Positions 3,512 to 37,534 are shown, counted from the first letter of the stretch. The stretch is 64,000 nt of DNA from an uncultured Burkholderiales bacterium (GCA_964504875.1 CAZDFJ010000004.1:23870-87869); one strand, 5' to 3'. Program-made: numbers and translations. Notes: a model not told the origin generated them from the sequence alone.

Positions 3512-3880
3512 TTATGTTGTAATCAGACATTGTTTGATTGCTGACTTTTTTATAAGATTTTCCATATTTTTAGGAAGATAAACCAGTTGAAGTTGTTTTC
3601 CTTGGCGTTTCAAAAAAAAGTGGAGCTCTTGTAAAATGCCAAAACACATGCTGTCAATTAATTTAATTTTTGTAAAGTTAATCCGCAAAATTTGATGGCC
3701 ATTCATTTCGTTTTCAAAAATATGACTTAAGTATTTCCGAAATAAATAAAGCGTATCGTGTGTAAAACGCCCATGAATAAAGAGTTCAACGAGGTTTAAT
3801 GTTGCGTCACAACGCACAGATAATGAAAAAACTGTATTTTTAAATAAGAGGCGTGAATTGGGATCACTATTTGAACACAT
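3512..3880 (-). CDS. Single-domain STAS protein (anti-sigma-factor-antagonist-like), paralog 1
   Basis: The 122-aa product aligns along its whole length with the ORFs at 4720..5142 and 3962..4335. Shared blocks are G(R)xTxDxLxLFRxY, NEM, IDSxxFG and GKxLxL. The putative phospho-acceptor Ser is retained (LIDSMCFG). An AAGGAAG RBS is present. Confidence 0.7.
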   Translation of the reverse strand: MCSNSDPNSRLLFKNTVFSLSVRCDATLNLVELFIHGRFTHDTLYLFRKYLSHIFENEMNGHQILRINFTKIKLIDSMCFGILQELHFFLKRQGKQLQLVYLPKNMENLIKKSAIKQCLITT

Positions 3881-3961
3881 CTTTCTGTCTTCCTTTTATT
3901 ACAAATGTAAAAATATAAAATAATTGATCAAGTAGAGAGTGTGAAATAATTTGCGGAGAAG

Positions 3962-4335
3962 TTACGGAGGCGGGCAAGGAAAAGAAGAATGTGTGTGAAT
4001 AATAAGGGCACTCTGCCTTAATGAAGTATGAAGAAATAATTTTTCTAAATGACGAGGCAGATTTTTAAATTGAAGGGATTTAGATTGTCCGTCTAATAAA
4101 CAATCAAGTTGGATAGCAAAGCCAAAGAAGGTAATGTCAATACCAATTGCGTGTGTGAGGTCAATCATCAGTGTGTGTGCTTTCTCCATTATTTCAGAGT
4201 TCACAACACAATGGATTTGATGCTTGAAAAGCCGAAAGTTGACGAAATTGAGTTCGCCATGTACGGAAATAGTAGCTACCCCCCCCCCCCCATGGGATTT
4301 TGACCAATTATTTTTAGTATAAATTGACTATTCAT
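3962..4335 (-). pseudogene. STAS paralog 3, frame-disrupted at a poly-G tract (phase-variable gene or frameshifted pseudogene)
   Basis: The ATG at 4335 reads MNSQFILKIIGQNPMGGGG and then hits TAG at 4278..4276. The STAS body (VATISVHGELNFVNFRLFKHQ... to the stop at 3962) is open in the adjacent frame from 4327. Adding 1 G or removing 2 G restores a ~124-aa protein colinear with the paralogs. Confidence 0.7.
4279..4291 (-). repeat. Homopolymeric tract, 13 x G on the coding (minus) strand
   Basis: Direct count gives c at 4279-4280, ten c at 4281-4290 and c at 4291. The plus-strand antisense ORF translation YPPPPMGF confirms the run. It is by far the longest G/C homopolymer I found in the window. 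Confidence 0.95.
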
Positions 4336-4657
4336 TTCTTTTTTTATAAAATAAAAATAGTTCTACAATCAATAGGACACAAATTAAATTGATTATAAGC
4401 ATAAATTGCAGAATGTAAACAAAAAATTGTTTATAAATTTAATAAAAATAGTATTTTAATTGTAAATATCTTTTTTATTTTAGCTAATATAAACATTTAA
4501 TTAAAATAAATTAATAAAATAGATAATATTTATTATTATTTAATGAAACTATTTTTTTGAAAATCTCAATATTTAAAAAAAGAAAAAATGCCAGAAAGAA
4601 ATTTATTTTTATAAAAAATATAAAATAAAAAGAGATGTTTTGATGAGAATTAAATAA

Positions 4658-4689
4658 AAAAACAGCAAAATAAATTTTGCTGTTTTTTG
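4658..4689 (-). terminator. Rho-independent terminator downstream of STAS paralog 2
   Basis: The stem pairs CAGCAAAA with TTTTGCTG and is flanked by A/T runs on both sides. Confidence 0.6.
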
Positions 4690-4719
4690 TAAGAAATTAA
4701 AGCAGAAGTCTCTATTTGT

Positions 4720-5142
4720 TTACCAAGGGAGCCATGTATTCTGTTTTTTTTCTGTGATAGGCCGAGAATCATCCAATACAACGCAGGCATTAAAAGGAGA
4801 GTTTAATAAAAGTTCACGTGTATTTTCAGGAGGGTTAAGGATTTTGAGCTTTTTCCCCGCCTTTTCTAAAGTCCGATAAAGATGAATAACCATACCGAAA
4901 CCTGTACTGTCAATATGATCGGTCAGATTGCAATCAATCAACAAGGTGTGATGTTGTGGCATTTCGTTATCAAGCAAGTAAGTGGTATAGCGTCGGAAAA
5001 GTGATAAATTATCATAAGTCAATCTTCCTGTTACAATAAGCTTGAGCATATCATCTTCAATCATATGGGAAAGAATGAGTGATTGAGACTGAAAACAATT
5101 ATAAAGTCCCACATCAAAAGTATGAAAAGATAAGTTATTCAT
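4720..5142 (-). CDS. Single-domain STAS protein (anti-sigma-factor-antagonist-like), paralog 2
   Basis: The 140-aa product has the STAS core LLIDCNLTDHIDSTGFGMVIHLYRTLEKAGKKLKIL with the conserved DS(T/S)G phospho-acceptor motif. A GAGGGGA RBS is present. An extended -10-like TGCTAGAAT lies on the minus strand at 5188..5196. Confidence 0.75.
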   Translation of the reverse strand: MNNLSFHTFDVGLYNCFQSQSLILSHMIEDDMLKLIVTGRLTYDNLSLFRRYTTYLLDNEMPQHHTLLIDCNLTDHIDSTGFGMVIHLYRTLEKAGKKLKILNPPENTRELLLNSPFNACVVLDDSRPITEKKQNTWLPW

Positions 5143-11607: not shown

Positions 11608-12567
11608 ATGAGTCTTGGTTATCTCATGCTTGATCTGGCTGGAACAGAATTGAGTCTAACAGATGAGCGACGTTTATTACATCCTGCTTGTGCAGGGGTG
11701 ATTCTTTTTTCTAGAAATTATCAAAATCGACTACAACTCAAGGCATTAACAAATGCAATCCGATCACTACGACCAGAATTATTGATTGCAGTGGATCATG
11801 AAGGTGGACGCGTTCAACGTTTTCGTGAAGGATTTTCAAAAATTCCACCCATGGCGTCTTTTGGTGAAATTGCGCAAAATGATATGAAATTGGCTCAAAA
11901 GAAAGTGTTTGATGTCGGCTATCAAATTGCCACTGAATTAATTGAATGTGGCATAGATTTTAGTTTTACGCCTGTATTAGATTTAAATTATGGGCGAAGC
12001 CAAGTGATAGGTGATCGGGCTTTTTCTTCTAATCCAACTGTTGTTTTAAATTTGGCTTCTCAATTGATGTATGGGTTACGGAAAGGGGGCATGATTGCAG
12101 TAGGAAAGCATTTTCCGGGGCATGGGTATGTCACACAGGATTCTCACTTTGAAATTCCATTAGATACGCGTTCTTTTTCAGATATTATGAAACATGATTT
12201 GCTTCCTTTTCATGGTCTGATTCAAGCGGGATTAGCGGCAATTATGCCGGCTCATGTGATTTATACACAAGTGGACAGTTTTCCCCCTTGTTTTTCTGTT
12301 TTTTGGTTGCAAAAAGTGTTACGTGGCCAGCTTGGTTTTGAAGGGGTCATTATGAGTGATGACTTAAGTATGGGCGGAGCACATAGTGTCGGAAGTAATG
12401 TTCAAGAACGCACAGCAGATGCCTTGAAAGCAGGATGTGATTTGGTTTTAATCTGTAATGATCCTGATTCAGTAGATGCAATTTTGTATGAACATGATCG
12501 TCTCAAAAAAAATGTGAATATCAAAAATGCCATTCGGTTACAAAAATTACGTGTTGAGTGGCAATAA
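11608..12567 (+). CDS. nagZ: Beta-N-acetylhexosaminidase (GH3, peptidoglycan recycling)
   Basis: The 319-aa product carries AVDHEGGRVQRF, KHFPGHG and MSDDLSM. Confidence 0.85.
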   Translation: MSLGYLMLDLAGTELSLTDERRLLHPACAGVILFSRNYQNRLQLKALTNAIRSLRPELLIAVDHEGGRVQRFREGFSKIPPMASFGEIAQNDMKLAQKKVFDVGYQIATELIECGIDFSFTPVLDLNYGRSQVIGDRAFSSNPTVVLNLASQLMYGLRKGGMIAVGKHFPGHGYVTQDSHFEIPLDTRSFSDIMKHDLLPFHGLIQAGLAAIMPAHVIYTQVDSFPPCFSVFWLQKVLRGQLGFEGVIMSDDLSMGGAHSVGSNVQERTADALKAGCDLVLICNDPDSVDAILYEHDRLKKNVNIKNAIRLQKLRVEWQ

Positions 12568-12582
12568 AAAAAGGAGGGCGAA

Positions 12583-13959
12583 ATGGAGTGGCTGTTGAAT
12601 TTTTTAAGTGGTTTTCATATAAAAGGCGTGTCCCTTCTGGGATGGTTACAGCAATTTCAACGTATTTCTTTTTTAGCCCAATTTTTTGTTGTTGGCTTAG
12701 TGGTTTTAATGTCTCGTCATTTTAGTCTTTTATCTAATCGTAAAATGATTAAAATACGGGGAGCAACCCCTTTTGTTTATACATGTATTGATGCTTTTTG
12801 TCGGATTTCTTTTCCAGTTTATGCGTTACTGATGACCATTGTGGCCCAATCTTTGTTGACAAATTATCATTTTTCAATAAAGATTTTTCATGTCGTCGTG
12901 CCTCTTCTCCTTGCTCTTGCAGCCATTCGGCTCAGTCTTTATATTATTCGTCAAACATTTGCGCGAGATAGTCATTTACTTAAAACAACAGAACGTTTTA
13001 TCACTGTAACTGTCTGGGTGACTTTTGCATTACATTTATTGGGTGTGCTCGACACAATTTTTATCATGCTCAATGATATTGGATTTCGTGTCGGTCGTTC
13101 TTATATTTCTATTCTCTTTGTATTGGATGCAATTGTCATTATTGGAATGGTGACAATTGTCATGTTTTGGCTCATGCGTTTGGCAGAAGAGCGGTTAATG
13201 CGGGCTGAACAACTTGAAGTCAATTTACGTATTGTTTTAAGTAAGGTATTGCGGGCAGTTTTTATTTTATTAAGCTTATTATTGTCATTGCCTTTAGCAG
13301 GGATTGATATTACGGCCCTTTCTGTGTTTGGGGGGGCATTAGGTGTGGGGTTGGGGTTTGGGCTTCAAAAAATTGCCAGTAATTATGTAAGTGGTTTTAT
13401 TATTTTGCTAGAAAAATCAATTAAATTAGGCGATCTCCTTAAAGTTGGGGAGAGCTACGGACAGGTTTCACAATTGAATACGCGTTATATTGTGATAAAA
13501 GACCTCAGTGGAATCGAGTTTATTATTCCAAATGAAACTTTAATTGGGACCACGGTCATTAATTATTCGCACACCAATAGCAAAATGCGGGTAGCGATTC
13601 CAGTTGTGGTGGGATATCAATCAGATATTGCTTTTGTTAAGGCATTAATTTTGGAAATTACTACATCCCATGCCCGTGTTTTATCTGATCCTGCGCCAAA
13701 TGTTTTTGTGAAGAATTTTGCGGATAGTGGTATTGAATTGGAGATAGGTTTGTGGATTAGTGATCCAGAGCTAGGCGTTTTGGCCGTGCGTTCTTATATT
13801 TTGGAAAATTTATTAACTGCCTTTGCAGAACATCACATAGAAATTCCTTATCCATATAGACAATTGGTTTTTTCTTCAGAGATGACTCAATCTGATGGGC
13901 AGACAGAAGCATTATTAGGGCAAAAAAATACTATTACGACCACAAAAACTAATGTTTAA
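12583..13959 (+). CDS. MscS-family mechanosensitive channel
   Basis: The 458-aa product has a multi-TM N-terminus followed by the MscS core ASNYVSGFIILLEKSIKLGD and a beta domain. Confidence 0.8.
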   Translation: MEWLLNFLSGFHIKGVSLLGWLQQFQRISFLAQFFVVGLVVLMSRHFSLLSNRKMIKIRGATPFVYTCIDAFCRISFPVYALLMTIVAQSLLTNYHFSIKIFHVVVPLLLALAAIRLSLYIIRQTFARDSHLLKTTERFITVTVWVTFALHLLGVLDTIFIMLNDIGFRVGRSYISILFVLDAIVIIGMVTIVMFWLMRLAEERLMRAEQLEVNLRIVLSKVLRAVFILLSLLLSLPLAGIDITALSVFGGALGVGLGFGLQKIASNYVSGFIILLEKSIKLGDLLKVGESYGQVSQLNTRYIVIKDLSGIEFIIPNETLIGTTVINYSHTNSKMRVAIPVVVGYQSDIAFVKALILEITTSHARVLSDPAPNVFVKNFADSGIELEIGLWISDPELGVLAVRSYILENLLTAFAEHHIEIPYPYRQLVFSSEMTQSDGQTEALLGQKNTITTTKTNV

Positions 13960-15211
13960 GCCTATGGCGCAATAAAGCAATCCGTTCGGTTAGTGGGGGA
14001 TGCGTTTCATACACAAGATTATACCAAGGATCAGAAAGAAAATAAGAAGAACCATCCCCTCCTAATTTAAGAAAAACATGAATCAAAGCAGTGGAATGGA
14101 CCTTTTCACTTGCGTATTGATCTGCCTCTAACTCGGCCCGTTGGGCCATAAAATTAGCAAGAGGTTGTAATGGAAAAGCAAAAATAGGTAAGATCATGAT
14201 CATTAAAAGTAATCCAGCGGCGCCTCCTATTTTTTCCACATGAAGCCCTAAATAAAACCAATCTTGAGTGAATAAAAGCTGGCAGAAATATAACAATATA
14301 AAACTGGTAATGCTCATAAATCCAAAGCGTTGATAATGATGTTTATGATAAATATGCCCTAATTCATGTGCAATCACGGCTTTAATTTCTTCCAAATTAA
14401 GACGCGAAAAGAGCTGCTCATGAAGTACAATTTGTTTAGATTGACCCACACCAGTGAAATAGGCCAACCCGCGATCAGAAAGAGATGTATTAGGGGCGGT
14501 GACAAAAATCGATTGAATAGAAAATCCACATTGTTGCATGAATTGTAGACATTCTTGTTGAAAATCAAGATCAGTAAGAGGGCGCGTTTGCACGAAAAAA
14601 GGATCAATCCAAATTGGAAAAATAAACATAATAAATAAAATAAAACTATTGAAAAAGATCCATAAAGCAAACCACCATGCTGTAATATGCTGCATAATCC
14701 ACAATAAAATTAGTATAAAGGGAATACCTAATATCAGACCCAGACTAATTTCTTTCATAAATTGCCGACTTTTTTCAAGCCATATTGCCTTAATATTTTT
14801 TTCAAGCGGCATATAAAGTATTAGGCTAAAAATGCTATTAACACAATATGAAATTAAAAAAGTAGACAGAAAAAGAGCAAGTCCAAATTTATAAGCGGCT
14901 TGATCTGGCGGATAGCATGCTTGCCAATAATGTATGAGTTTATTGAAGCCCGAACCCCAAGTCATTCCTAAAAGAAAGAGGGCTTCTAAGAGAATTTGAA
15001 TATTCTGTATTTTTATTTTTTTTATAGTATAATCAGTGAGTTGCGTATGATATGTTGTGCTGGCTAAACCATGAAATTCGACAGGAATGTAATCCCGATG
15101 TCGATAGAGATGATGGATTTGTCGTCGGTTAATCCATAACTTGAGAAGAGTATAGCTACTTAGAAAAACGAAAAAAACAAAAGTAAAAAAGGTCTGAGCA
15201 TCTAAAATCAT
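13949..15211 (-). CDS. Integral-membrane M48 (Ste24/HtpX-type) zinc metalloprotease
   Basis: The 420-aa product has a multi-TM N-terminal half, the HELGH zinc motif (AHELGHIYHKHH) and a downstream E(LEAD) motif. It lies 27 nt downstream of the preceding gene on the same strand. Confidence 0.8.
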   Translation of the reverse strand: MILDAQTFFTFVFFVFLSSYTLLKLWINRRQIHHLYRHRDYIPVEFHGLASTTYHTQLTDYTIKKIKIQNIQILLEALFLLGMTWGSGFNKLIHYWQACYPPDQAAYKFGLALFLSTFLISYCVNSIFSLILYMPLEKNIKAIWLEKSRQFMKEISLGLILGIPFILILLWIMQHITAWWFALWIFFNSFILFIMFIFPIWIDPFFVQTRPLTDLDFQQECLQFMQQCGFSIQSIFVTAPNTSLSDRGLAYFTGVGQSKQIVLHEQLFSRLNLEEIKAVIAHELGHIYHKHHYQRFGFMSITSFILLYFCQLLFTQDWFYLGLHVEKIGGAAGLLLMIMILPIFAFPLQPLANFMAQRAELEADQYASEKVHSTALIHVFLKLGGDGSSYFLSDPWYNLVYETHPPLTERIALLRHRLKH

Positions 15212-15238
15212 GTAAAACCAACAAAGATGATTTGATCA

Positions 15239-15739
15239 TTAACGTACTTGTGTTTCTTTATACTGAAACATAAGGGGAACACGGCGCGGTTTTCGTTTTG
15301 CACAATAAAGCTTGCTTTGGGTCGGGCCGTAATCAATCAACATGCTGCCTGCCGCAGAACGATATTGATTGGGTTTGTGAATCGGAAAAAATCGAACAGC
15401 CGCATTGCTTTCTAGGGCTTTTTTTGCCTCTTCTACCGAAGAAGCAATCACTACACCTACAAATTCATATTCGCTTGCGGGATGGTTGACAAAACCTTCT
15501 TGTAATTTTAACCCGAAAAGGGTCTCAGAAACGCTAAACCATTCTGCTTCGCCTTCAGTACGAAGTGGTTCTTTGTAAAAATCTCGTAAATACTGTCTAA
15601 AAAATGCGCCACTGACTTCGTCATGGCACAATAGTGCCGATCCAAAAATCGTATTAAATGTTGTGGGGCCTGCGGTAACAGTGCAAACAGCACACAGACA
15701 AATCAGCCCAAAAAAAGATGAAAAGACAAACTTATTCAT
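15239..15739 (-). CDS. Exported protein of unknown function
   Basis: The 166-aa product has an N-terminal signal-peptide-like segment MNKFVFSSFFGLICLCAVCTVTA. I recognise no family. Its start is 11 nt after the stop of the RsbT-like gene. Confidence 0.5.
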   Translation of the reverse strand: MNKFVFSSFFGLICLCAVCTVTAGPTTFNTIFGSALLCHDEVSGAFFRQYLRDFYKEPLRTEGEAEWFSVSETLFGLKLQEGFVNHPASEYEFVGVVIASSVEEAKKALESNAAVRFFPIHKPNQYRSAAGSMLIDYGPTQSKLYCAKRKPRRVPLMFQYKETQVR

Positions 15740-15750
15740 GAAGAAATCGT

Positions 15751-16182
15751 TTAGAAAGAATCATAGAAACGCGCACGCATTATGGAAATAGTGACACAAG
15801 TTCCTTCAGTTGTGGATTGTAAAGAAAACTCATCCATGAGTCGGCGCGTCCCGGGTAATCCCCCACCCAAACTGTTTGTATTAGTACTGTAATTATCTTG
15901 CAATGCAAGCTCTATATTGGGAATGCCGGGACCACTATCTCGCACAATGACTTTCATTTTAATAAAATGATGCGCCAAATTCGACTCGTCAACAATTGTA
16001 CATTCTCCAGCATACGCATATTTGATGACGTTGCGTGTCAACTCAGAAATGGCAGTAGCAATTTTGGTTTGATCAACTGTATTAAAGCCAATTGCCCGAG
16101 CCATTTCGCGACCCATCCGTCGTGCAATAATAATATCATTCTGCACTTGTAAGGGAATGACGTGTTGTTTTATTTCAAACAT
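15751..16182 (-). CDS. RsbT-like anti-sigma regulatory factor / switch Ser-Thr kinase (HATPase_c_2)
   Basis: The 143-aa product is colinear with Bacillus RsbT as recalled. Shared blocks are DIIIARRMGREMARAIGFNTVDQTKIATAISELTRN, DSGPGIP and GLPGTRRLMDEFSL. Confidence 0.75.
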   Translation of the reverse strand: MFEIKQHVIPLQVQNDIIIARRMGREMARAIGFNTVDQTKIATAISELTRNVIKYAYAGECTIVDESNLAHHFIKMKVIVRDSGPGIPNIELALQDNYSTNTNSLGGGLPGTRRLMDEFSLQSTTEGTCVTISIMRARFYDSF

Positions 16183-16732
16183 GCAATGTCCATGAGTAAG
16201 CCAATCTTTTACCAGGTTTTTATTTAAAAACGATTTATTTTGTTGTCCAGTTTATTCTTGTGCTACAAAGGCCTTTTATGTCATTTTAGTTGTAGTATCA
16301 CTTGAGCATTATAATTAAACTAAACTGCACACAAAAAAGTAAAAGCATCGATTCTGATAGTTTTATTCTGTAGAGAGTCTCTATTTATCTTTGAGAGAGT
16401 TGGGTTAAAAAGAACACATGATTATTTTTTGCAAATTATTATTCAGACATAAATAATTTTTCAAAGAGAAATGTCTAGTATGATTCATACGCATTTTTCC
16501 AAATATAAAAATAGGGCGTATTTTACTAATATTTTTTATGTAAGAAAATTGCAAATCGTTTTATTAGAATTATTATTAGCCAAAATTATTATATACTAAA
16601 AAGAATTCTAAGCATAGTTTAATGCAAACGGGGGTAAAGTACACCCTTTTTCTTATAAGAAAAATTGTTATGTGGAAAATCATGATGTTTAGATTTTCAA
16701 AAACTTTCAAAAAGATTATGATTGTCTATAAT

Positions 16733-17395
16733 ATGAATAATATCATTTGCTTGTTAGTGGCAATAACAACATTATTTTTGGGAGGCTGTAGCCATCTTGA
16801 ATCTTCACAAAAGTTAGATGTGATTACAGGGGAGAATGGAGCAAATCAGTGTCCACTTTTGCCAAAACAAGTCAATTATTTTGATGTTCAAGGGAAAATA
16901 GGGGTAAAGCAAGAGGAAAAAGGCCTATTCGGCCAATTTTTTTGGCATCATGATCAAATCAAAAATGATGATTATTTAATTTTTTATAATCCATTAGGTC
17001 AGGTTGTTGCAGGCCTTTATCAAGAACAAGAAAAGATCCGATTTGTGGCCGAAGGCCAATCGGAAATGACCAATCGTCCTGAAGAAAAAATGCAAGAGCG
17101 TTTAGGATGGTCTATTCCTCTTGCCGCACTACATTATTGGATTTTAGCTAAACCTGATCCGAGAACATGGGCAATGCCCACATGGAATGCATTGAATCAA
17201 GTTGTCCAAATTAAACAAGATCAATGGATAATTGATTATTTGGATTATCAATTAGTCTCAATTCAAGCGGAAAATACAGGGATTTATAGTGTCCCAAAAA
17301 CTATCCGGTTACGCCATGAAAAGCAGCCATTAGAAATTAAAATAGTCGTGCAATCATGGCAATTTAAGGCGTCTTCAAAGACGTTGTTAAAATAA
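16733..17395 (+). CDS. lolB: Outer-membrane lipoprotein LolB
   Basis: The product has a lipobox LFLGGC after the internal Met at 16733. The ORF track starts at 16622, so the exact start is uncertain. LolB-like blocks are FFWHH, YNPLGQ and GWSIPLAALHYWILAKP. Confidence 0.7.
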   Translation: MNNIICLLVAITTLFLGGCSHLESSQKLDVITGENGANQCPLLPKQVNYFDVQGKIGVKQEEKGLFGQFFWHHDQIKNDDYLIFYNPLGQVVAGLYQEQEKIRFVAEGQSEMTNRPEEKMQERLGWSIPLAALHYWILAKPDPRTWAMPTWNALNQVVQIKQDQWIIDYLDYQLVSIQAENTGIYSVPKTIRLRHEKQPLEIKIVVQSWQFKASSKTLLK

Positions 17396-17451
17396 TTATT
17401 TTCTGAAAGATTCTAAAAAAATAATTTATTTTTGATGGCAGAATACACATT

Positions 17452-17811
17452 ATGTACCGTTTCATAAAAAATTTATTTGGATATAGTTTATTAGGTTTGT
17501 TCGTTTTGTTGAGTGGATGTGCAGAGCGTGAAAGCCCACAAATTAATGCGGAAAAATTTTGTAAGGCAATGCAAGCAGATGATTTAGAAGAGGCGAGTCA
17601 CTACACAACAGAACATACGCGAACCATGTTAGAGAAGTTGGTGGATGTGCCTCCAGAAGATCGTCGTATACCAAGCAGTTGTAAACCCATTAGAGAAGTG
17701 GTAACGCGTGATGCAGCAGAAGTCTTTTTCAAAGGAGAAAATGGAAAAGAAGAATCTATTAATTTAATTTTTGTAGATAATCGTTGGCAAGTCGCATCAA
17801 AGAAACAATAA
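17452..17811 (+). CDS. Small lipoprotein of unknown function
   Basis: The 119-aa product has a signal peptide with the lipobox LLSGC. Confidence 0.55.
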   Translation: MYRFIKNLFGYSLLGLFVLLSGCAERESPQINAEKFCKAMQADDLEEASHYTTEHTRTMLEKLVDVPPEDRRIPSSCKPIREVVTRDAAEVFFKGENGKEESINLIFVDNRWQVASKKQ

Positions 17812-31523: not shown

Positions 31524-32375
31524 ATGAATAATAGTAGTCATTCTGAAGTACTCAGACAACGTGAGTTTGCATTTAGCCGAGAAGATTTTTTGCGTATTAA
31601 AAAATTGATTTACGAACACGCAGGCATCTCTTTAAATGATAATAAACAAGAAATGGTATATAGCCGTTTGGCGCGGCGTTTAAGACAGCATAATTTTCAA
31701 TCATTCAAAGAATACTTGGATTATTTACAAGTTGTTCCTGACGAATGGGAGGCTTTCACGAACGCCTTGACGACAAATTTAACCTCATTTTTTCGAGAGG
31801 CTCATCATTTTCCCATTTTGGCTGAACATTTATTAAAATTAAAACATCAACCGATTCGTATTTGGAGTGCCGCCGCTTCTACAGGAGAAGAACCTTATTC
31901 TATTGCAATTACTGTGGTAGAGACGCTTAATCAGTTGAATCCTTCTGTTGAGATTTTGGCAACAGATTTGGATACACATGTGTTGCAAAAAGCTCGAGAA
32001 GCAATTTATGCGGTCGATCGTGTTGAAAAAATGGATCCGGAGCGTGTGAAACGTTTTTTCTTGCGCGGAAAAAATCAATTTGATGGCTTTGTGCGGGCGC
32101 GTCCTGAATTATGTCGCATTATAGATTTTAAGCAACTTAATCTATTGGACGAAAATTGGAATATCAAAGGGCCATTTGATGTGATTTTTTGCCGAAATGT
32201 CATGATTTATTTTGATAAAGAAACACAATATAAAATTCTTAAAAAATTTGTGCCATTACTGAGGCCAGACGGTTTGTTATTTACAGGGCATTCAGAAAGC
32301 TTTTTGCATGCAACAGATTTATTTAAGCCATTAGGGAAAACAGTGTATCGCCTTGCTCATACTTCGCATAAATAG
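31524..32375 (+). CDS. cheR: Chemotaxis protein methyltransferase
   Basis: The 283-aa product has a CheR N-terminal helical domain plus a SAM domain: TSFFRE, IWSAAASTGEEPYSIA and FCRNVMIYFD. Confidence 0.9.
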   Translation: MNNSSHSEVLRQREFAFSREDFLRIKKLIYEHAGISLNDNKQEMVYSRLARRLRQHNFQSFKEYLDYLQVVPDEWEAFTNALTTNLTSFFREAHHFPILAEHLLKLKHQPIRIWSAAASTGEEPYSIAITVVETLNQLNPSVEILATDLDTHVLQKAREAIYAVDRVEKMDPERVKRFFLRGKNQFDGFVRARPELCRIIDFKQLNLLDENWNIKGPFDVIFCRNVMIYFDKETQYKILKKFVPLLRPDGLLFTGHSESFLHATDLFKPLGKTVYRLAHTSHK

Positions 32376-32408
32376 TTAATTAGAAAATATATTGGAGACC
32401 AAAATTAT

Positions 32409-33029
32409 ATGGTGATACAAGATTATACAGAAACACTTAGTCCTAATTTGTATTTTGATCGACATTTCAATATGGAGGCGGGCAAGATTTTACCAGGGGA
32501 ATATTATGTAACGAGGCGGGACATGCTTCTTGTGACTGTATTAGGTTCCTGTGTTTCAGCATGTATTCGGGATGCTATATCTGGAATAGGCGGAATGAAT
32601 CATTTTATGTTGCCTGATAGCGGTTCCTCAGATAAAGAAAGTTTGCTAAGCTCTTCTGCGCGTTATGGGACATACGCTATGGAAGTCTTAATTAATGAAT
32701 TATTAAAATTAGGGGCAAAGCGAGCAAATTTGGAAGCAAAAGTTTTTGGGGGCGGGCGCGTCTTAAAAGGTTTTACGGTTGGGAATGTTGGGCAAAGAAA
32801 TGCTGATTTTGTTTTAGAATTTTTAAAAACAGAAAATATTCGGGTTGTTGCCCAAGATTTACTCGATGTTTATCCTCGAAAAGTTTATTTTTTTCCAAAA
32901 ACCGGTAAAGTGCTTGTGAAGAAATTGAAAAGTACACATGGGGATGAAAATATTCTTAAAGATGAAAGAGAATACAATCGACGGATTGTGCAGTCACCTA
33001 TTAGTGGGGATATTGATCTCTTTACTTAA
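32409..33029 (+). CDS. cheD: Chemoreceptor glutamine deamidase
   Basis: The 206-aa product carries LGSCVSACIRD ... GGMNHFMLPD ... AKVFGGG. Confidence 0.85.
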   Translation: MVIQDYTETLSPNLYFDRHFNMEAGKILPGEYYVTRRDMLLVTVLGSCVSACIRDAISGIGGMNHFMLPDSGSSDKESLLSSSARYGTYAMEVLINELLKLGAKRANLEAKVFGGGRVLKGFTVGNVGQRNADFVLEFLKTENIRVVAQDLLDVYPRKVYFFPKTGKVLVKKLKSTHGDENILKDEREYNRRIVQSPISGDIDLFT

Positions 33030-33145
33030 TCAAAAAAATAAATTTATAATCATACATGTTTAATAAGAAAACAGTGTTTATAGGTAAAGAGAAAAAAAAA
33101 TGCTGAGTATATGTGAGGAAATATCAGCTTTTAAAAGGATTGTTT

Positions 33146-34249
33146 ATGAAACTAAAGGTACTCGTTGTTGATGATTCAGCATTAATCCGGAGTGTTTTAA
33201 AGGAAATTATTAATAGCCAGCCAGATATGGAAGTTGTTGGGGCGGCTCCTGACCCTTACGTTGCAAGGGATTTGATTAAAAAATTAAATCCTGATGTGCT
33301 GACACTGGATGTGGAAATGCCGCGGATGGATGGATTAGACTTTTTAGAAAAGTTAATGAGATTACGTCCTATGCCAGTGGTGATGGTTTCAACTTTGACA
33401 GAACGGGGGTCAGATGTGACATTTCGTGCCCTTGAGTTGGGGGCAGTAGATTTTATTACAAAACCAAAGTTAGATATTAGTCGTGGCTTACAGCAGTATA
33501 GTGATGAAATTACAGATAAGATTCGTGCCGCTGCACGGGCTAAGATAAAACGACTTCATGCATTACAAACCATGGTAAAAGGACATGAGCCTGAACAAGC
33601 GCGGCCTGTGGCACCTATTGCTCATGTTCCGACTTTGGGAAATGCGTTCATGACAACAGAAAAGGTAATATTAGTAGGGGCTTCTACCGGTGGCACAGAA
33701 GCAATCAAAGATTTTCTAATAGAACTGCCTCCAGATTGTCCAGGCATTTTAATCACACAACATATGCCAGAAGCGTTTACCCGTTCTTTTGCGAATCGCC
33801 TGAATAATTTATGTCGTATTACTGTAAAAGAGGCGGAGCATAATGAACGTATTCTTCCTGGACATGCGTATATTGCGCCAGGCCACTCCCATTTGTTGAT
33901 CCGCAAAAATGGGGCAAATTATGTCACAGAATTGAGTCAAGCGGCGCCTGTTAATCGTCATCGGCCTTCAGTAGATGTTTTATTTCGGTCTGCTGCGGAA
34001 ATTGTAGGTAAAAATGCGATTGGCATTATTATGACAGGCATGGGTAAGGATGGGGCACTAGGCATGTTAGAAATGAAACAAGCCGGGGCTTTTAACTTTG
34101 CGCAGGATGAGGCGAGTTGTATTGTTTTTGGTATGCCAAAAGAAGCCATTGCTGTGGGGGCAGTCGATGAAATTATTACGATTAAAGAAATGGCCCACGC
34201 TGTGATGACATATTTAACGAGCTTGGGAAAAAGAAATTTTCGGGTGTAA
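33146..34249 (+). CDS. cheB: Chemotaxis response regulator protein-glutamate methylesterase
   Basis: The product has REC ([19 protein letters not shown]) and an esterase domain ([19 protein letters not shown]). The ORF track starts at 33113, and the ATG at 33146 gives the canonical N-terminus. Confidence 0.9.
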
Positions 34250-34776
34250 TATTCCCAAAAAATAAATATTAAAAATAATAAAACTGTTTTTCCAGAAGCA
34301 GAAAAATAATATATGAAGCTTATAATTTTGACCTAGTCTATTTATTTTATGGTCAAATATAGTATTTTCCTTATATTTGGAAGGAAAGAATAACAAAAAA
34401 CGAATTTGATTTGCTATAATAAACATCATATAGAATTGCCAATATTTTTCTTTATGAAAAATACTAGAAAAATAAAATTTTTTATTATCTATCATGGAAA
34501 AAATACAGGTTTTTTGTTAAGCAGGCCTTAAGTGTATTGCTTTGAAAGCCAAGGTATCAAGAGTACATGAAAAAAATTGTAGTTCATAAAAAGATATGAT
34601 TGATGTGTAATCGATTATATTAGGTACTTTTCATAAAGAAGTATTTATGATTTAGTCAGTGAAGTAATCTATCAAAAAGTAGTCAATCTGATCATCTCCT
34701 GTTCTAATCTCTTAAAAAGAAAATGACAAGATTGAACATATTTTAGCGTACCTTAGTATTTTTGAGGATGATAAGC

Positions 34777-35082
34777 ATGCAAGTAAATTTGCAAGTTAAA
34801 GAAGGAAAAGCAAAGCTGGTATTAAGCGGGCGATTTGATTTTAATTCCCACCGTGAATTTCGTAGCGGTTGTGATGAAGCGATGAATTCTCCTAAAATTA
34901 ATGAAATTGAAATTGATTTAGGCGGCGTGGATTATCTGGACAGTTCAGCATTAGGGATGCTTTTATTATTACGTGAGCGCGCAGTCGCTTCTAATAAAAA
35001 ATTGGCCTTGGCGAATTGTCGGGGAACAGTCAAACAAGTGCTCGATGTTGCAAATTTTAGTCAACTCTTCACGATTCGTTAA
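34777..35082 (+). CDS. Canonical STAS anti-sigma-factor antagonist (SpoIIAA/RsbV/CrsA-like)
   Basis: The ~101-aa product has YLDSSALGMLLLLRE with the conserved phospho-acceptor Ser. A GAGGA RBS lies 8 nt before the ATG at 34777. The ORF track starts at a TTG at 34762. Confidence 0.8.
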   Translation: MQVNLQVKEGKAKLVLSGRFDFNSHREFRSGCDEAMNSPKINEIEIDLGGVDYLDSSALGMLLLLRERAVASNKKLALANCRGTVKQVLDVANFSQLFTIR

Positions 35083-35806
35083 GCGTTGATTCATCGCCAT
35101 AAATCAGTGAATTCTTCCACACATCCTGTTTATGTAAAATTTAATTTTGATGTGATGTTTTATGATTATTTATATAAATAACTAACAAGAAAACATCAAA
35201 AAATCATTTTAAAAATAGAGTGAATATGAATAGGATGTGATCAGTATTGTGATGCGCTCAAATGCTTAGTTTTATCCATTTTCTTGAAAATAGCAGCCGC
35301 TGAATTTTTGTCTTTTCGAGTTTGTTGAGACAGAGTTAATACTGTTTTTTTAACTTTAATCAGCAAACCAATTAACTCTCTTCTCATCTAATTTAGAAGA
35401 AAAGCAATCATTCGTCTATGAAAAATATGATTAATCTATTTTTATTGCGGGGCTTTCAGAAAGGCTAATAAATATGCGGGTTATTTTTTGCAAATCTTAT
35501 TGAAATGTAAAAAATAAGATCATCCGTGAAAAAATATAGATTTTTCACTATTAATTGCACGATTTTTCCATTAGAATAATACGGTTTTATAGTTGTTATG
35601 AGTATGGTATTTTTATCATTTCGATTTTGGTCGGCAATTAAAGCTAACAGTTAATTTTTATTAATTTTAATAGGTCATTATTTATTGAAATAATAATAGT
35701 GTGAAGACTTTACATCTTTTATCATGTGATAATTATGAAATAAAGTATAAAAATTTACTGTTAAGTATTAATCATTTTTAGTCTTTTTGCAGCGAGTGCT
35801 TCAACA

Positions 35807-37534
35807 ATGCAAGGAAAAATTAAGGTTTTGGTCGTTGATGATTTGGAACAAAATTTACTGTTAATCAGTCGATTTGTAACAAAATTAGGACATCAAGTAG
35901 TCACGGCAAAGAATGGTGAAGAAGCGATTCGATGCTATCAGGAAGAACGTCCCGATGTAATCCTCATGGATATTATGATGCCGGGGATGGATGGGTATGA
36001 GGCGACCGCACGGATTAAAGCACTTGAAACAAACAAGTGGGTCCCCGTTGTTTTTCTGAGTGCGATGACACAAGATGAAAGTTTGGTACGCGGCTTGGAT
36101 GTCGGAGGGGATGACTATCTGACAAAGCCAGTGAATCTTGTTGTATTGAAAGCAAAGATTAATGCGATGTTACGTATTGCCGAGTTGCAGGAATATCTTG
36201 CAGAAAAAAATGATAAGCTGGAAAGCTATTATTTTATGGCAGAGGAGGAGAAACGTGTAGCGAAACACCTCATGGAGCATATTATTAATGCTGAAAAATT
36301 ACATGATGAATCGCTAGAGTTTTTTACTGAACCTGCGCAAGGATTTAATGGTGATTTGCTTGCTGCTGCCCGTTCGCCAGGGAATATTTTACATGTGTTA
36401 CTTGCAGATGGGACAGGGCATGGTCTGTCTGCTGCCATTAACGTCATGTTATTAATTCAGCCTTTTTACGCTATGACAGAAAAAGGATTTTCCCTTCCGA
36501 GTATTGTCGAGGAAATGAATCGCAAATTGAAAGCGGTTATGCCAGCGGATCGTTTTGTGGCTGCAACTTTTGTCTCGATTGATATGCGAAATCATCTTAT
36601 TGAAGTATGGAATGGGGGCAATCCTGCTTTAATTGTTTTAGATAATGAAGGTCAAATTATTAAACAATTTCGGGCAAAACACTTACCATTGGGTATTTTA
36701 AATGAGAATGAATTTCGTTCTTATACTGAGATTTATCAGTGGGAAAGACCTGTTCAAGTAGTGCTTTGTTCGGATGGTGTAACAGAGGCAGAAAATACAG
36801 AAAATAAAATGTTTGGCATTGATGGTGTGATTAGTAGTCTACAACGTCATCAACCTGTTGATCGTTTAACTTGCTTAATGAATGATATTAAAACGCATTT
36901 AAACGGCCGGCCTGCTGTAGATGATTTATCTATGGCGTTGATTCATTGCCCAATGCATGAAGAACAATCTCATAAATTTGTGGAACAAAATGCCAATTAT
37001 GTGCATACCCTCGAACAAGGGATTGGTTATTGGAAATTTGAATTGGGACTCAGCGCCCATGAATTGAAATATATTGACGTTGTTCCGATTATGTTGAATG
37101 TCATTAATGAAATTCATATTGCACGTGAACATGCCTCACAACTCTTTTTGATTGTGTCAGAATTGTATAACAATGCATTAGATCATGGTATTTTAAAATT
37201 AAATTCGCAATTAAAATCACAGCCTGAAGGGATGGATCGTTATCTGACAGAGCGAAAACAACGTTTACAAAATTTAGAGCAAGGAAGTATTGAGATTCGT
37301 TGTGAAAGTGTGATTTTTAACCAAAAAGCTTGTATTAAAATTCATGTGCGAGATAGTGGTCAAGGTTTTGATTTTCATCATATTGATAAAACAAATGATC
37401 ATCATATTACCAACCCAAGTGAATTAATGATTCGACCTTTTGGGAGAGGAATACATTTAGTGAAGCATCTTGCCAGCCATGTGCAATACTTGGGACAAGG
37501 CAATGAAGTTGTGGTCTATTATGAATTAAGTTAA
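35807..37534 (+). CDS. Three-domain response regulator: REC, PP2C/SpoIIE phosphatase and HATPase anti-sigma kinase (CrsR-like)
   Basis: The 575-aa product has REC (VLVVDD, ILMDIMMPGMDG, DYLTKP). It also has PP2C (GDLLAA, LLADGTGHGLSAA, CSDGVTE) and a C-terminal RsbW-like HATPase (SELYNNALDHG, VRDSGQGFD, GRGIHLV). Confidence 0.8.
   Translation: MQGKIKVLVVDDLEQNLLLISRFVTKLGHQVVTAKNGEEAIRCYQEERPDVILMDIMMPGMDGYEATARIKALETNKWVPVVFLSAMTQDESLVRGLDVGGDDYLTKPVNLVVLKAKINAMLRIAELQEYLAEKNDKLESYYFMAEEEKRVAKHLMEHIINAEKLHDESLEFFTEPAQGFNGDLLAAARSPGNILHVLLADGTGHGLSAAINVMLLIQPFYAMTEKGFSLPSIVEEMNRKLKAVMPADRFVAATFVSIDMRNHLIEVWNGGNPALIVLDNEGQIIKQFRAKHLPLGILNENEFRSYTEIYQWERPVQVVLCSDGVTEAENTENKMFGIDGVISSLQRHQPVDRLTCLMNDIKTHLNGRPAVDDLSMALIHCPMHEEQSHKFVEQNANYVHTLEQGIGYWKFELGLSAHELKYIDVVPIMLNVINEIHIAREHASQLFLIVSELYNNALDHGILKLNSQLKSQPEGMDRYLTERKQRLQNLEQGSIEIRCESVIFNQKACIKIHVRDSGQGFDFHHIDKTNDHHITNPSELMIRPFGRGIHLVKHLASHVQYLGQGNEVVVYYELS

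What the first reader, a model, noticed from the sequence alone, without database searches (positions are those of the whole stretch)
13949..16182. Orphan RsbT-like switch kinase apparently co-transcribed with an exported protein and a membrane M48 metalloprotease
The 143-aa product of 15751..16182 is colinear with the stressosome kinase RsbT. Shared blocks are TVDQxxIxTAISELxRN, GPGIP and GLPGxxRLMDEFSL. No RsbR or RsbS genes, RsbU N-domain phosphatase or sigma factor is adjacent. Upstream is a 440-bp AT-rich spacer and the divergent lolB. Instead, it is followed on the same strand by a signal-peptide protein of unknown family after 11 nt. A 420-aa polytopic HELGH (Ste24/HtpX-type) protease follows after a further 27 nt. 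This pairs a cytoplasmic switch kinase with envelope-located partners. It suggests a link between partner switching and regulated or quality-control proteolysis at the membrane. I do not recognise this from described stressosome or Rsb systems.
Basis: partly seen in the sequence, partly recalled or inferred. Interest (0 to 1): 0.65.

Follow-up and report, generated by a model that had tools for sequence, protein, structure and literature searches.

The report
Detached RsbT kinase heading an envelope-protein operon
A stress-signalling kinase (RsbT) that normally sits beside its partner genes is here found alone, at the head of a probable three-gene operon with a secreted protein and a membrane protease. 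Comparison with other genomes indicates a young, lineage-specific gene arrangement rather than a demonstrated new signalling pathway.

Summary
On the minus strand (16182 to 13949) lie three genes: a 143-aa RsbT-family kinase, a 166-aa signal-peptide protein and a 420-aa Ste24-type M48 zinc protease. They are separated by 11 and 27 nt, with no terminator-like site between them. Upstream is a 439-bp AT-rich spacer shared with the divergent lolB.

The kinase is a genuine, intact RsbT. It is 50-55% identical to RsbTs in rsbS-rsbT-PP2C modules, keeps all ATP-binding boxes, and has pN/pS of about 0.2 (dN/dS about 0.1). No RsbR, RsbS, RsbX or RsbU_N homologue occurs anywhere in the 64 kb.

The same tightly spaced trio recurs in the only related lineage available. 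Identities there are 84% (kinase), 70% (secreted protein) and 53% (protease), synonymous sites are saturated, and one flank is rearranged. It is therefore probably an operon.

Outside that lineage the link disappears. None of 80 RsbT loci, 41 loci of the secreted-protein family or 5 Ste24-type loci shows the pairing. In 59 of 64 testable loci, rsbT sits directly behind rsbS.

Best reading: a young operon made by gene-order reshuffling, in which RsbT probably still signals through partners encoded elsewhere. A direct kinase-protease link is not excluded, because the protease's active site faces the cytoplasm, but nothing positively supports it.

The parts
16183..16621 (-). AT-rich spacer shared with divergent lolB. 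It presumably contains the promoter and 5' UTR of the trio.
   Evidence: GC is 0.23-0.30. The best sigma-70-like site is 16464-16435 (TTGAAA-18-AATAAT, 10/12), but the number of such sites in the region is no higher than in shuffles. A block TGTCnnAATAATA overlapping that -10-like hexamer is conserved in the relative L001-L003. No Rfam family matches here.
16151..16193 (-). A 43-nt block identical to the relative, spanning -11 to +32 of the kinase start codon. It begins with a 7-codon upstream mini-ORF (ATGGACATTGCATGTTTGAAATAA, 16193-16170) that overlaps the kinase ATG.
   Evidence: This is the longest exact run in the 2.6-kb comparison, even though synonymous sites are saturated. No stable RNA fold is predicted (z +1.2 and +0.3). 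Its function is unknown.
15751..16182 (-). RsbT-family serine/threonine kinase (GHKL/HATPase_c_2), 143 aa, first gene of the trio.
   Evidence: Pfam HATPase_c_2 at 1.6e-12. It is 50-55% identical to RsbTs located in rsbS-rsbT-PP2C modules. It keeps nearly all positions that are >=80% conserved in 117 homologues, including the N, G1 and G2 boxes. pN 0.134 versus pS 0.633 against L001.
15740..15750 (-). 11-nt gap between the kinase and the secreted-protein gene.
   Evidence: Sequence read. No terminator-like site. The gap is 14-15 nt in relatives.
15239..15739 (-). Periplasmic protein of an uncharacterised family, 166 aa. It has a signal peptide (cleavage predicted after TVTA), a conserved Cys38/Cys146 pair, and a clade-specific basic C-terminal tail.
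   Evidence: No Pfam or NCBIfam hit. A profile search finds 98 representative clusters. C38, C146, W67, Y50 and A65 are invariant. The AF2 model has core pLDDT of about 90, an alpha/beta fold and no PDB match (best E 0.07, TM <=0.32).
15212..15238 (-). 27-nt gap between the secreted-protein gene and the protease gene.
   Evidence: Sequence read. No terminator-like site. The gap is 17 nt in relatives.
13949..15211 (-). Ste24-type (M48A) seven-helix zinc metalloprotease, 420 aa. HELGH is at residue 282 and ELEAD at residue 360. The catalytic domain is predicted to be cytoplasmic.
   Evidence: Pfam Peptidase_M48_N plus Peptidase_M48. Matches Ste24p 4IL3 at 3.8e-19 and ZMPSTE24 4AW6 at 7e-14. Its 3' end overlaps the convergent MscS gene by 11 nt.
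3512..5142 (-). Context only (candidate partners, not shown to interact): three paralogous single-domain STAS genes with no adjacent kinase or phosphatase. They are 3512-3880, 3962-4204 (truncated, Ser replaced) and 4720-5142.
   Evidence: Pfam STAS at 2.9e-5 and 1e-8. The alignment shows an IDS motif in two of them. They resemble SpoIIAA/HsbA-type STAS proteins, not RsbS.
34762..37534 (+). Context only: a separate partner-switching pair. It comprises a STAS protein (34762-35082) and a REC-PP2C(SpoIIE)-HATPase_c_2 protein (35807-37534), downstream of cheR-cheD-cheB.
   Evidence: Pfam hits; ORFs.

Best explanation
This is a young, lineage-specific and probably co-transcribed three-gene cluster. 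Its first gene is an intact, selectively maintained RsbT-family serine kinase. That kinase has been separated from the rsbR-rsbS-(PP2C)-RsbU_N genes that flank the great majority of its relatives. The other two genes encode a periplasmic protein of an uncharacterised, disulfide-containing family and a Ste24-type seven-helix zinc protease whose active site faces the cytoplasm.

Shown: the gene identities, the tight spacing, purifying selection on all three genes, conservation of the trio in the one related lineage, and absence of the pairing everywhere else.

Inferred: the three genes are transcribed from a promoter in the AT-rich spacer. The juxtaposition arose by gene-order reshuffling, so it gives co-expression rather than a dedicated pathway. 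RsbT still works as a partner-switching kinase. That means it binds and phosphorylates a STAS-domain protein and, when released, activates an effector, and these partners are encoded elsewhere. Possible partners are an unlinked rsbRS/RsbU_N set outside the window or, less likely, the orphan STAS paralogues at 3.5-5.1 kb.
For: Kinase identity:
- The kinase is a true RsbT. Homologues at 50-55% identity sit in RsbR/RsbS/RsbT/PP2C/(RsbU_N- or PAS-)GGDEF-EAL modules in Tatlockia, Ca. Lucifugimonas and a 5-Mb genome.
- In 80 metagenomic RsbT loci, 59 of 64 testable have rsbS directly upstream and 41 of 56 have a PP2C directly downstream.
- It keeps nearly every family-conserved position, including surfaces outside the ATP site. 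This argues that its canonical partners are retained.

Selection and origin:
- All three genes are under purifying selection while synonymous sites are saturated.
- Base composition is host-like.

Operon status:
- The gaps are 11 and 27 nt here and 14-15 and 17 nt in relatives, with no terminator-like site.

Lack of wider linkage:
- 0 of 80 RsbT loci carry an M48 or the secreted-protein family.
- 0 of 41 loci of the secreted-protein family carry a kinase or an M48 within about 5 kb. In Sulfuricella-type loci the gene follows rimO.
- Five Ste24-type orthologue loci have the gene beside orn, followed by rsgA or a pterin-4a gene, with no kinase.
- Neither neighbour contains a STAS or RsbU_N domain.
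Against: - The trio kept its order and tight spacing over a divergence that saturated synonymous sites and rearranged the protease-side flank: MscS here, an epimerase in L001, L007 and L008. That is some evidence of selection on the arrangement.
- No canonical partner is visible in 64 kb, and the rest of the genome could not be examined.
- The secreted protein carries a C-terminal tail that is conserved in this clade and absent from its relatives elsewhere.
- The protease's catalytic face is in the same compartment as the kinase.
- Co-transcription itself is not demonstrated. The RNA-labelled runs behave like DNA.
Confidence: 0.55

Rival explanations
1. Dedicated module. RsbT has been recruited as a stressosome-independent regulator of the Ste24-type protease, docking on or phosphorylating its cytoplasmic catalytic domain. 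The periplasmic protein acts as sensor, cofactor or substrate. Partner switching would then be coupled to membrane proteolysis.
For: The trio is tight and conserved in the related lineage despite a flank rearrangement. All three genes are under purifying selection. The protease active site is predicted to be cytoplasmic and therefore reachable. No canonical partner lies in the 64 kb. A clade-specific conserved tail is present on the secreted protein. In B. subtilis, RsbT can drive a stress response without RsbR/RsbS (PMC11821858).
Against: No co-occurrence is seen outside one narrow clade. The neighbours have no STAS or RsbU_N docking domain. RsbT retains the family-conserved surface positions expected for its canonical partners. 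The periplasmic protein and the cytoplasm-facing active site are in different compartments. No literature link was found.
Confidence: 0.15
2. Dispersed minimal partner-switching system. The detached RsbT uses the orphan SpoIIAA-like STAS paralogues at 3512-5142 as its substrates or antagonists. These also lack a neighbouring kinase or phosphatase. The operon neighbours are irrelevant to signalling.
For: Two of the paralogues keep the phosphorylatable Ser in the (I)DS motif and have no cognate kinase nearby. The other kinase in the window (REC-PP2C-HATPase) has its own canonical STAS partner encoded about 0.7 kb upstream of it.
Against: The paralogues are not RsbS- or RsbR-like: there is no significant similarity to RsbS from three canonical modules. 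One copy is truncated and has lost the Ser. They lie 10.6 kb or more away. No interaction data exist.
Confidence: 0.2
3. The genes are adjacent but transcribed independently, from internal promoters. The arrangement would then carry no regulatory meaning at all.
For: A promoter-like hexamer pair lies inside the kinase 3' end, at 15788-15760. None of the three genes has a good Shine-Dalgarno sequence, so translational coupling is not evident.
Against: Promoter-like sites are no more frequent than in shuffled sequence: 8 found versus 10.8 expected. Gaps of 11-27 nt without a terminator, conserved in relatives, are typical of operons (established knowledge on intergenic distances). Weak Shine-Dalgarno sequences are general in this genome.
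Confidence: 0.12
4. The kinase gene is a decaying relic of a lost stressosome locus and has no function.
For: Its usual neighbours are missing.
Against: The ORF is intact and all catalytic boxes are present. pN/pS is about 0.2 and dN/dS about 0.1 across a saturated divergence, with 80-84% amino-acid identity, higher than most neighbouring genes.
Confidence: 0.03

Closest known systems
RsbT of the RsbR-RsbS-RsbT stressosome module (B. subtilis, Listeria, Vibrio vulnificus; here seen in Tatlockia L004, Ca. Lucifugimonas L054 and L055)
   Same: Same protein family and length (about 135-145 aa). It is 47-55% identical, with identical N, G1 and G2 boxes and the RRLMDEF block.
   Different: There is no rsbR, rsbS, PP2C (rsbX) or RsbU_N-domain gene next to it or anywhere in the 64 kb. 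It heads an operon with unrelated envelope genes. It also has two small insertions and a G97N change.
RsbT loci without adjacent rsbRS but with an RsbU_N-histidine kinase output (metagenomic loci L064 and L081/L086)
   Same: These are also RsbT genes not preceded by rsbS. About 4 of 64 sampled loci are of this kind, once L130 is set aside because its rsbS lies about 400 bp upstream.
   Different: Those loci still keep the RsbU_N-type effector directly downstream. The window's gene has lost both sides.
Ste24p / ZMPSTE24 (M48A) and their proteobacterial homologues beside orn, followed by rsgA or a pterin-4a gene
   Same: Same two-domain architecture (Peptidase_M48_N plus M48), HExxH plus ExxxAD motifs and seven predicted helices. 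It is 32-37% identical to the orn-linked bacterial genes.
   Different: The genomic context is different, and it evolves fast (53% identity between the two clade members versus 91% for pdxA). Its substrate is unknown. Bacteria are not known to make CAAX-prenylated proteins (my knowledge).
SpoIIAB / RsbW anti-sigma factor kinases
   Same: Same GHKL fold and the same partner-switching logic. SpoIIAB is the best solved-structure match, at 5e-5.
   Different: The similarity is much weaker than to RsbT (1e-5 versus 1e-35). The NCBIfam SpoIIAB and RsbW models score far below their cut-offs. No sigma factor gene is nearby.
HsbR-HsbA / CrsR-CrsA type partner switching (REC-PP2C-kinase plus STAS)
   Same: Such a pair is present in the same window, at 34762-37534. 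This shows that the organism uses partner switching.
   Different: It is a separate system with its own kinase domain and STAS partner. Nothing links it to the trio.

Membership tests
RsbT kinase family | GHKL/HATPase_c_2 domain of about 135-145 aa with intact N box (ExxxN), G1 box (DxGxG) and G2 box (GxGLPG) | tested here: met
   Pfam at 1.6e-12. ELTRN, DSGPGI and GGGLPG are present. Only 3 substitutions occur at positions >=80% conserved in 117 homologues.
RsbT kinase family | Closer to RsbTs of canonical rsbS-rsbT modules than to RsbW/SpoIIAB | tested here: met
   E is 1e-28 to 1e-37 against proteins found in rsbS-rsbT-PP2C context. This compares with 5e-5 against SpoIIAB structures and sub-threshold NCBIfam RsbW/SpoIIAB scores.
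RsbT kinase family | Phosphorylates RsbS/RsbR STAS domains and activates an RsbU_N-domain effector | not testable with these tools
   This needs biochemistry or the whole genome.
Stressosome (RsbRST) module | rsbR (sensor-STAS) and rsbS directly upstream of rsbT | tested here: not met
   A 439-bp spacer and the divergent lolB lie upstream. tblastn with RsbR and RsbS from three modules finds nothing in the window. In 59 of 64 other RsbT loci this feature is met.
Stressosome (RsbRST) module | Feedback PP2C (RsbX) and/or RsbU_N-domain output gene downstream | tested here: not met
   The downstream genes are a secreted protein of unknown family and an M48 protease. There is no RsbX or RsbU_N hit in the window.
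Stressosome (RsbRST) module | RsbR/RsbS encoded elsewhere in the same genome | not testable with these tools
   Only 64 kb are available, and no tool searches the rest of this organism's assembly.
Ste24-type (M48A) metalloprotease | N-terminal five-helix domain plus M48 catalytic domain with HExxH and a downstream Glu ligand | tested here: met
   PF16491 at 1.2e-17 and PF01435 at 2.2e-25. HELGH is at 282 and ELEAD at 360, with the predicted helices. Ste24p 4IL3 matches at 3.8e-19.
HtpX (M48B) | Reaches the NCBIfam HtpX equivalog score; about 290 aa with four helices | tested here: not met
   The best HtpX model scores 38.8 bits against a cut-off of 285.
Operon (single transcription unit) | Same strand, short gaps, no intervening terminator, spacing conserved in relatives | tested here: met
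Operon (single transcription unit) | Transcripts spanning both junctions | tested here: inconclusive
   RNA-labelled runs X3, X18 and X19 hold 4.5-20 kb contigs that cross divergent and convergent genes at flat depth. They therefore behave as DNA.
Conserved functional gene neighbourhood (kinase with M48 with secreted protein) | Adjacency recurs in phylogenetically independent lineages | tested here: not met
   It is present only in the window lineage and one sister lineage. It is absent from 80 RsbT loci, 41 secreted-protein loci and 5 M48 loci.

The most novel reading that the evidence does not exclude
In this lineage RsbT works without any stressosome. It directly controls a Ste24-type membrane protease by docking on, or phosphorylating, its cytoplasm-facing catalytic domain. 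The co-encoded periplasmic protein acts as sensor or substrate. This would be a natural case of stressosome-independent RsbT signalling wired to membrane proteolysis.
Probability: 0.1. Interest if true: 0.7.

Novelty: new variant of a known kind. Interest (0 to 1): 0.3.

Why it matters
RsbT is almost always encoded with RsbR and RsbS: 59 of 64 loci sampled here have rsbS directly upstream. Recent work in B. subtilis (PMC11821858) suggests RsbT can initiate a stress response without the stressosome and may itself be a sensor.

A bacterium in which an intact, strongly conserved rsbT is naturally detached from all stressosome genes would be a useful natural test of that idea, if the whole genome indeed lacks rsbR and rsbS. 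If the kinase instead talks to the neighbouring Ste24-type protease, it would give a first regulatory handle on bacterial Ste24 homologues. I am not aware of any described substrate or control mechanism for these, and one literature search found none.

As it stands, the evidence supports only a lineage-specific operon, so the practical value is modest. It is a lead for whoever holds the full genome or a culture.

Tried and rejected
- RNA evidence for co-transcription. Three RNA-labelled wastewater runs hold the region, but as 4.5-20 kb contigs crossing divergent and convergent genes at flat depth. They behave like DNA, so they are uninformative.
- Genome-contig scan with the single M48 protein found no relative.
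- An alignment of 34 secreted-protein homologues was too diverse for locus finding. A closer subset worked.
- Fold search of the secreted protein against the PDB gave nothing significant: best E 0.07, TM <=0.32, with only vague resemblance to small alpha/beta chaperone-like folds. No function could be assigned.
- Rfam scan found no RNA family in the spacer.
- RNA folding of the conserved 5' block showed no stable structure.
- Shine-Dalgarno analysis showed weak sites throughout this genome, so their absence in the trio says nothing.
- Base composition showed no sign of recent horizontal transfer of the trio.
- Relic or pseudogene hypothesis for the kinase was rejected on selection and motif conservation.
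- The HtpX assignment for the protease was rejected.
- Naming the organism failed, because cluster look-ups carry no names. It is an uncultured bacterium with 37% GC that recurs in wastewater and wetland metagenomes. It is beta- or gammaproteobacterial, judging from LolB (my knowledge) and from its best hits.
- A literature search found no described RsbT-M48 link.


Full report
**What is there.** The ORF list confirms three consecutive minus-strand ORFs: 15751-16182 (143 aa), 15239-15739 (166 aa) and 13949-15211 (420 aa). The gaps are 11 and 27 nt (sequence). Upstream lies a 439-bp spacer of GC 0.23-0.30, reaching the divergent lolB (Pfam LolB 7.4e-30). Downstream, the protease gene overlaps the 3' end of a convergent MscS-family gene by 11 nt. 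A consensus scan finds no terminator-like site between the three genes, and promoter-like sites are no more frequent than in shuffled sequence (8 versus 10.8).

**The kinase.**
- Pfam assigns HATPase_c_2 (1.6e-12).
- A search of 5.8 billion proteins returns 341 homologues. Apart from a 99% variant and one 84% relative, the next hits are 50-57% identical proteins of 132-145 aa, many labelled RsbT by JGI.
- I checked the context of three of them. All are canonical stressosome modules: Tatlockia (protoglobin-RsbR, RsbS, RsbT, PP2C, PAS-GGDEF-EAL), Ca. Lucifugimonas (RsbS, RsbT, PP2C, RsbU_N-GGDEF-EAL) and a 5-Mb genome (PAS-RsbR, RsbS, RsbT, PP2C, RsbU_N).
- In 80 further RsbT loci from metagenomes, 59 of 64 with enough sequence have an RsbS-like gene directly upstream, and 41 of 56 have a PP2C directly downstream.
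- Against 117 homologues the window protein keeps practically every position that is >=80% conserved. These include ATAISELTRN (N box), DxGPGI (G1), GLPG (G2) and RRLMDEF. The only differences are I11L, G97N, I121L, two short insertions and a short C-terminal extension.
- SpoIIAB and RsbW are far more distant.

**The protease.** Pfam finds Peptidase_M48_N (five N-terminal helices) plus Peptidase_M48. The closest solved structures are Ste24p 4IL3 (3.8e-19) and ZMPSTE24. HtpX models score far below their cut-offs. HELGH (282) and ELEAD (360) are intact. Hydropathy and the K/R distribution place both catalytic segments (201-295 and 353-420) on the cytoplasmic side, as in Ste24 structures (my knowledge). 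The protease is in the membrane, but its active site shares a compartment with the kinase.

**The middle gene.**
- It has no Pfam or NCBIfam hit, and a word-indexed search found only three homologue clusters.
- A full profile search found 98 representative clusters of small proteins (about 150-170 aa).
- All of these have an N-terminal hydrophobic signal sequence and invariant C38, C146, W67, Y50 and A65. This fits a periplasmic protein with one disulfide.
- AlphaFold2 gives a confident alpha/beta core (pLDDT about 90 for residues 30-150). Nothing in the PDB matches it significantly (best E 0.07, TM <=0.32).
- The window clade has a conserved basic C-terminal tail (RKPRRVPLMFQYKETQVR), modelled as disordered. 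It is absent from P0123 and from nearly all of the other homologues aligned.

**Is the trio a unit?**
- The only related lineage in the databases (L001, L002, L003, L007, L008) has the same three genes in the same order, with gaps of 14-15 and 17 nt. Strain variants of the window organism are identical in layout.
- That lineage is not close. Synonymous sites are saturated (pS 0.63-0.78). Amino-acid identities over the global alignment are 80% (kinase; 84% by BLAST), 70% (secreted protein) and 53% (protease), against 91% for pdxA and 56% for lolB.
- pN is well below pS for all three genes, so all are under purifying selection.
- The lolB side is retained, with an IS605 orfB fragment inserted in the spacer. 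The protease side differs: an epimerase instead of MscS.
- GC3 of the trio is within the host range.

Together with the spacing and the lack of terminators, I rate co-transcription as likely but unproven. The three RNA-labelled runs that hold the region carry long contigs crossing genes on both strands at uniform depth, so they behave like DNA.

**Is the trio a functional module?** Beyond that one clade the answer from comparative genomics is no.
- None of the 80 RsbT loci contains an M48 or a member of the secreted-protein family.
- A 42%-identical homologue of the secreted protein follows a radical-SAM methylthiotransferase.
- 40 genomic loci of the family, in Sulfuricella, Herbaspirillum, Nitrosomonadales and others, have no kinase or M48 within 5 kb. 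In the Sulfuricella group the gene follows rimO.
- In the five Ste24-type orthologue loci examined (32-37% identity) the gene lies beside orn, followed by rsgA or a pterin-4a dehydratase gene, with no kinase.

Each of the three genes therefore has its own, different home elsewhere, and the juxtaposition is young. Neither neighbour contains a STAS or RsbU_N domain, which are the two known RsbT-docking domains.

**Partners.**
- tblastn with RsbR, RsbS, RsbX and RsbU_N from three canonical modules finds nothing in the 64 kb.
- The window does contain other partner-switching parts. One is a canonical STAS gene (34762-35082) followed about 0.7 kb downstream by a REC-SpoIIE-HATPase_c_2 gene (35807-37534), lying downstream of cheR-cheD-cheB.
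- The other is a set of three paralogous single-domain STAS genes at 3512-5142 with no neighbouring kinase or phosphatase. Two keep the (I)DS serine; one is truncated and has lost it.
- These paralogues are SpoIIAA/HsbA-like, not RsbS-like. They are possible but unproven RsbT substrates.
- RsbT genes without adjacent rsbRS do occur elsewhere. L064, L081/L086 and L087 are about 4 of 64 loci, after setting aside L130, whose rsbS lies about 400 bp upstream. The ones I inspected keep an RsbU_N-histidine kinase effector directly downstream. The window gene has lost both sides.

**Mechanism.** My best-supported reading (confidence 0.55) is as follows. Gene-order reshuffling placed an intact rsbT at the head of an envelope-protein operon. 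RsbT continues to act as a partner-switching kinase on STAS- and RsbU_N-type partners encoded elsewhere. The operon gives co-expression only. The strict retention of RsbT family-conserved positions is the main positive argument for retained canonical partners.

The rival, a dedicated RsbT-Ste24 module (0.15), rests on several points. The trio persists through a large divergence and a flank rearrangement. The protease faces the cytoplasm. The secreted protein has a clade-specific tail. B. subtilis RsbT can signal without RsbR/RsbS (PMC11821858). This rival has no support from co-occurrence or domain content, and I found no literature precedent. Other readings score lower: dispersed pairing with the orphan STAS paralogues (0.2, compatible with the main reading), independent transcription (0.12) and a dead relic (0.03, contradicted).

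**A detail worth recording.** The longest exact match between the window and L001 over the whole 2.6 kb is a 43-nt block, 16193-16151. It runs from 11 nt upstream to 32 nt downstream of the kinase start codon, despite saturated synonymous divergence. It starts exactly at the ATG of a 7-codon mini-ORF (MDIACLK*) that overlaps the kinase ATG. It does not form a stable predicted structure. This suggests sequence-level control of kinase translation, but with two lineages only it cannot be tested further.

**Verdict.** The kinase is a new member of the RsbT family in a new, lineage-specific gene arrangement. That makes it a new variant of a known kind, of moderate-to-low interest. The decisive test is to search the whole genome for RsbR, RsbS and RsbU_N.

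Noticed in passing
window 16151-16193 (minus strand): A 43-nt block across the kinase start codon is identical to the L001 lineage, although synonymous sites are saturated. It begins at the ATG of a 7-codon mini-ORF (ATGGACATTGCATGTTTGAAATAA, 16193-16170) that overlaps the kinase ATG. No stable RNA fold is predicted.
   Followed up: partly
window 3512-5142 (minus strand): Three paralogous single-domain STAS genes (122 aa, a truncated 80 aa, and 140 aa) are separated by long AT-rich gaps and have no neighbouring kinase or phosphatase. The truncated copy has lost the phosphorylatable Ser.
   Followed up: partly
window 31524-37534 (plus strand): cheR, cheD and cheB are followed by a canonical STAS gene (34762-35082) and a REC-SpoIIE(PP2C)-HATPase_c_2 gene (35807-37534). 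This looks like a chemosensory-type cluster with a partner-switching output of the HsbR/HsbA or CrsR/CrsA kind. No cheA, cheW or cheY is seen in between. Three dCache MCP genes are scattered at 21393, 42508 and 48983.
   Followed up: partly
window 15242-15298 (minus strand); alignments A1 and A4: The secreted protein of this clade ends in a conserved basic tail (RKPRRVPLMFQYKETQVR). The tail is absent from P0123 and from nearly all of the other homologues aligned, and is modelled as disordered. The family (98 representative clusters) has an invariant Cys pair and no annotation.
   Followed up: partly
L001 4458-4907; also L002 and L003: In the sister lineage an IS605 OrfB fragment sits in the spacer between lolB and the kinase gene. 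The trio's own promoter should therefore lie within about 350 nt of the kinase. A block TGTCnnAATAATA is conserved there in both lineages.
   Followed up: partly
window 13949-13959: The convergent MscS-family gene (12583-13959, +) and the M48 gene (13949-15211, -) overlap by 11 nt at their 3' ends. This leaves no room for a terminator between them.
   Followed up: no
L064, L081 and L086 (metagenomic loci): A minority of RsbT genes lack an adjacent rsbR/rsbS but keep an RsbU_N-histidine kinase effector directly downstream, with a LuxR-type response regulator as well in L081. These may also be stressosome-independent RsbT systems.
   Followed up: partly
runs X3, X18 and X19 laid on window 12500-17500: Runs labelled as RNA or metatranscriptomic contain 4.5-20 kb contigs spanning both strands at flat depth, so they behave as DNA. 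X18 and X19 gave identical tables, as if they were the same data deposited twice.
   Followed up: no
window 16622-17395: Gene callers in public assemblies start lolB 60 nt later (237 aa instead of 257 aa). That would make the spacer about 500 bp. A 42-aa ORF is sometimes called in the spacer on the lolB strand.
   Followed up: no
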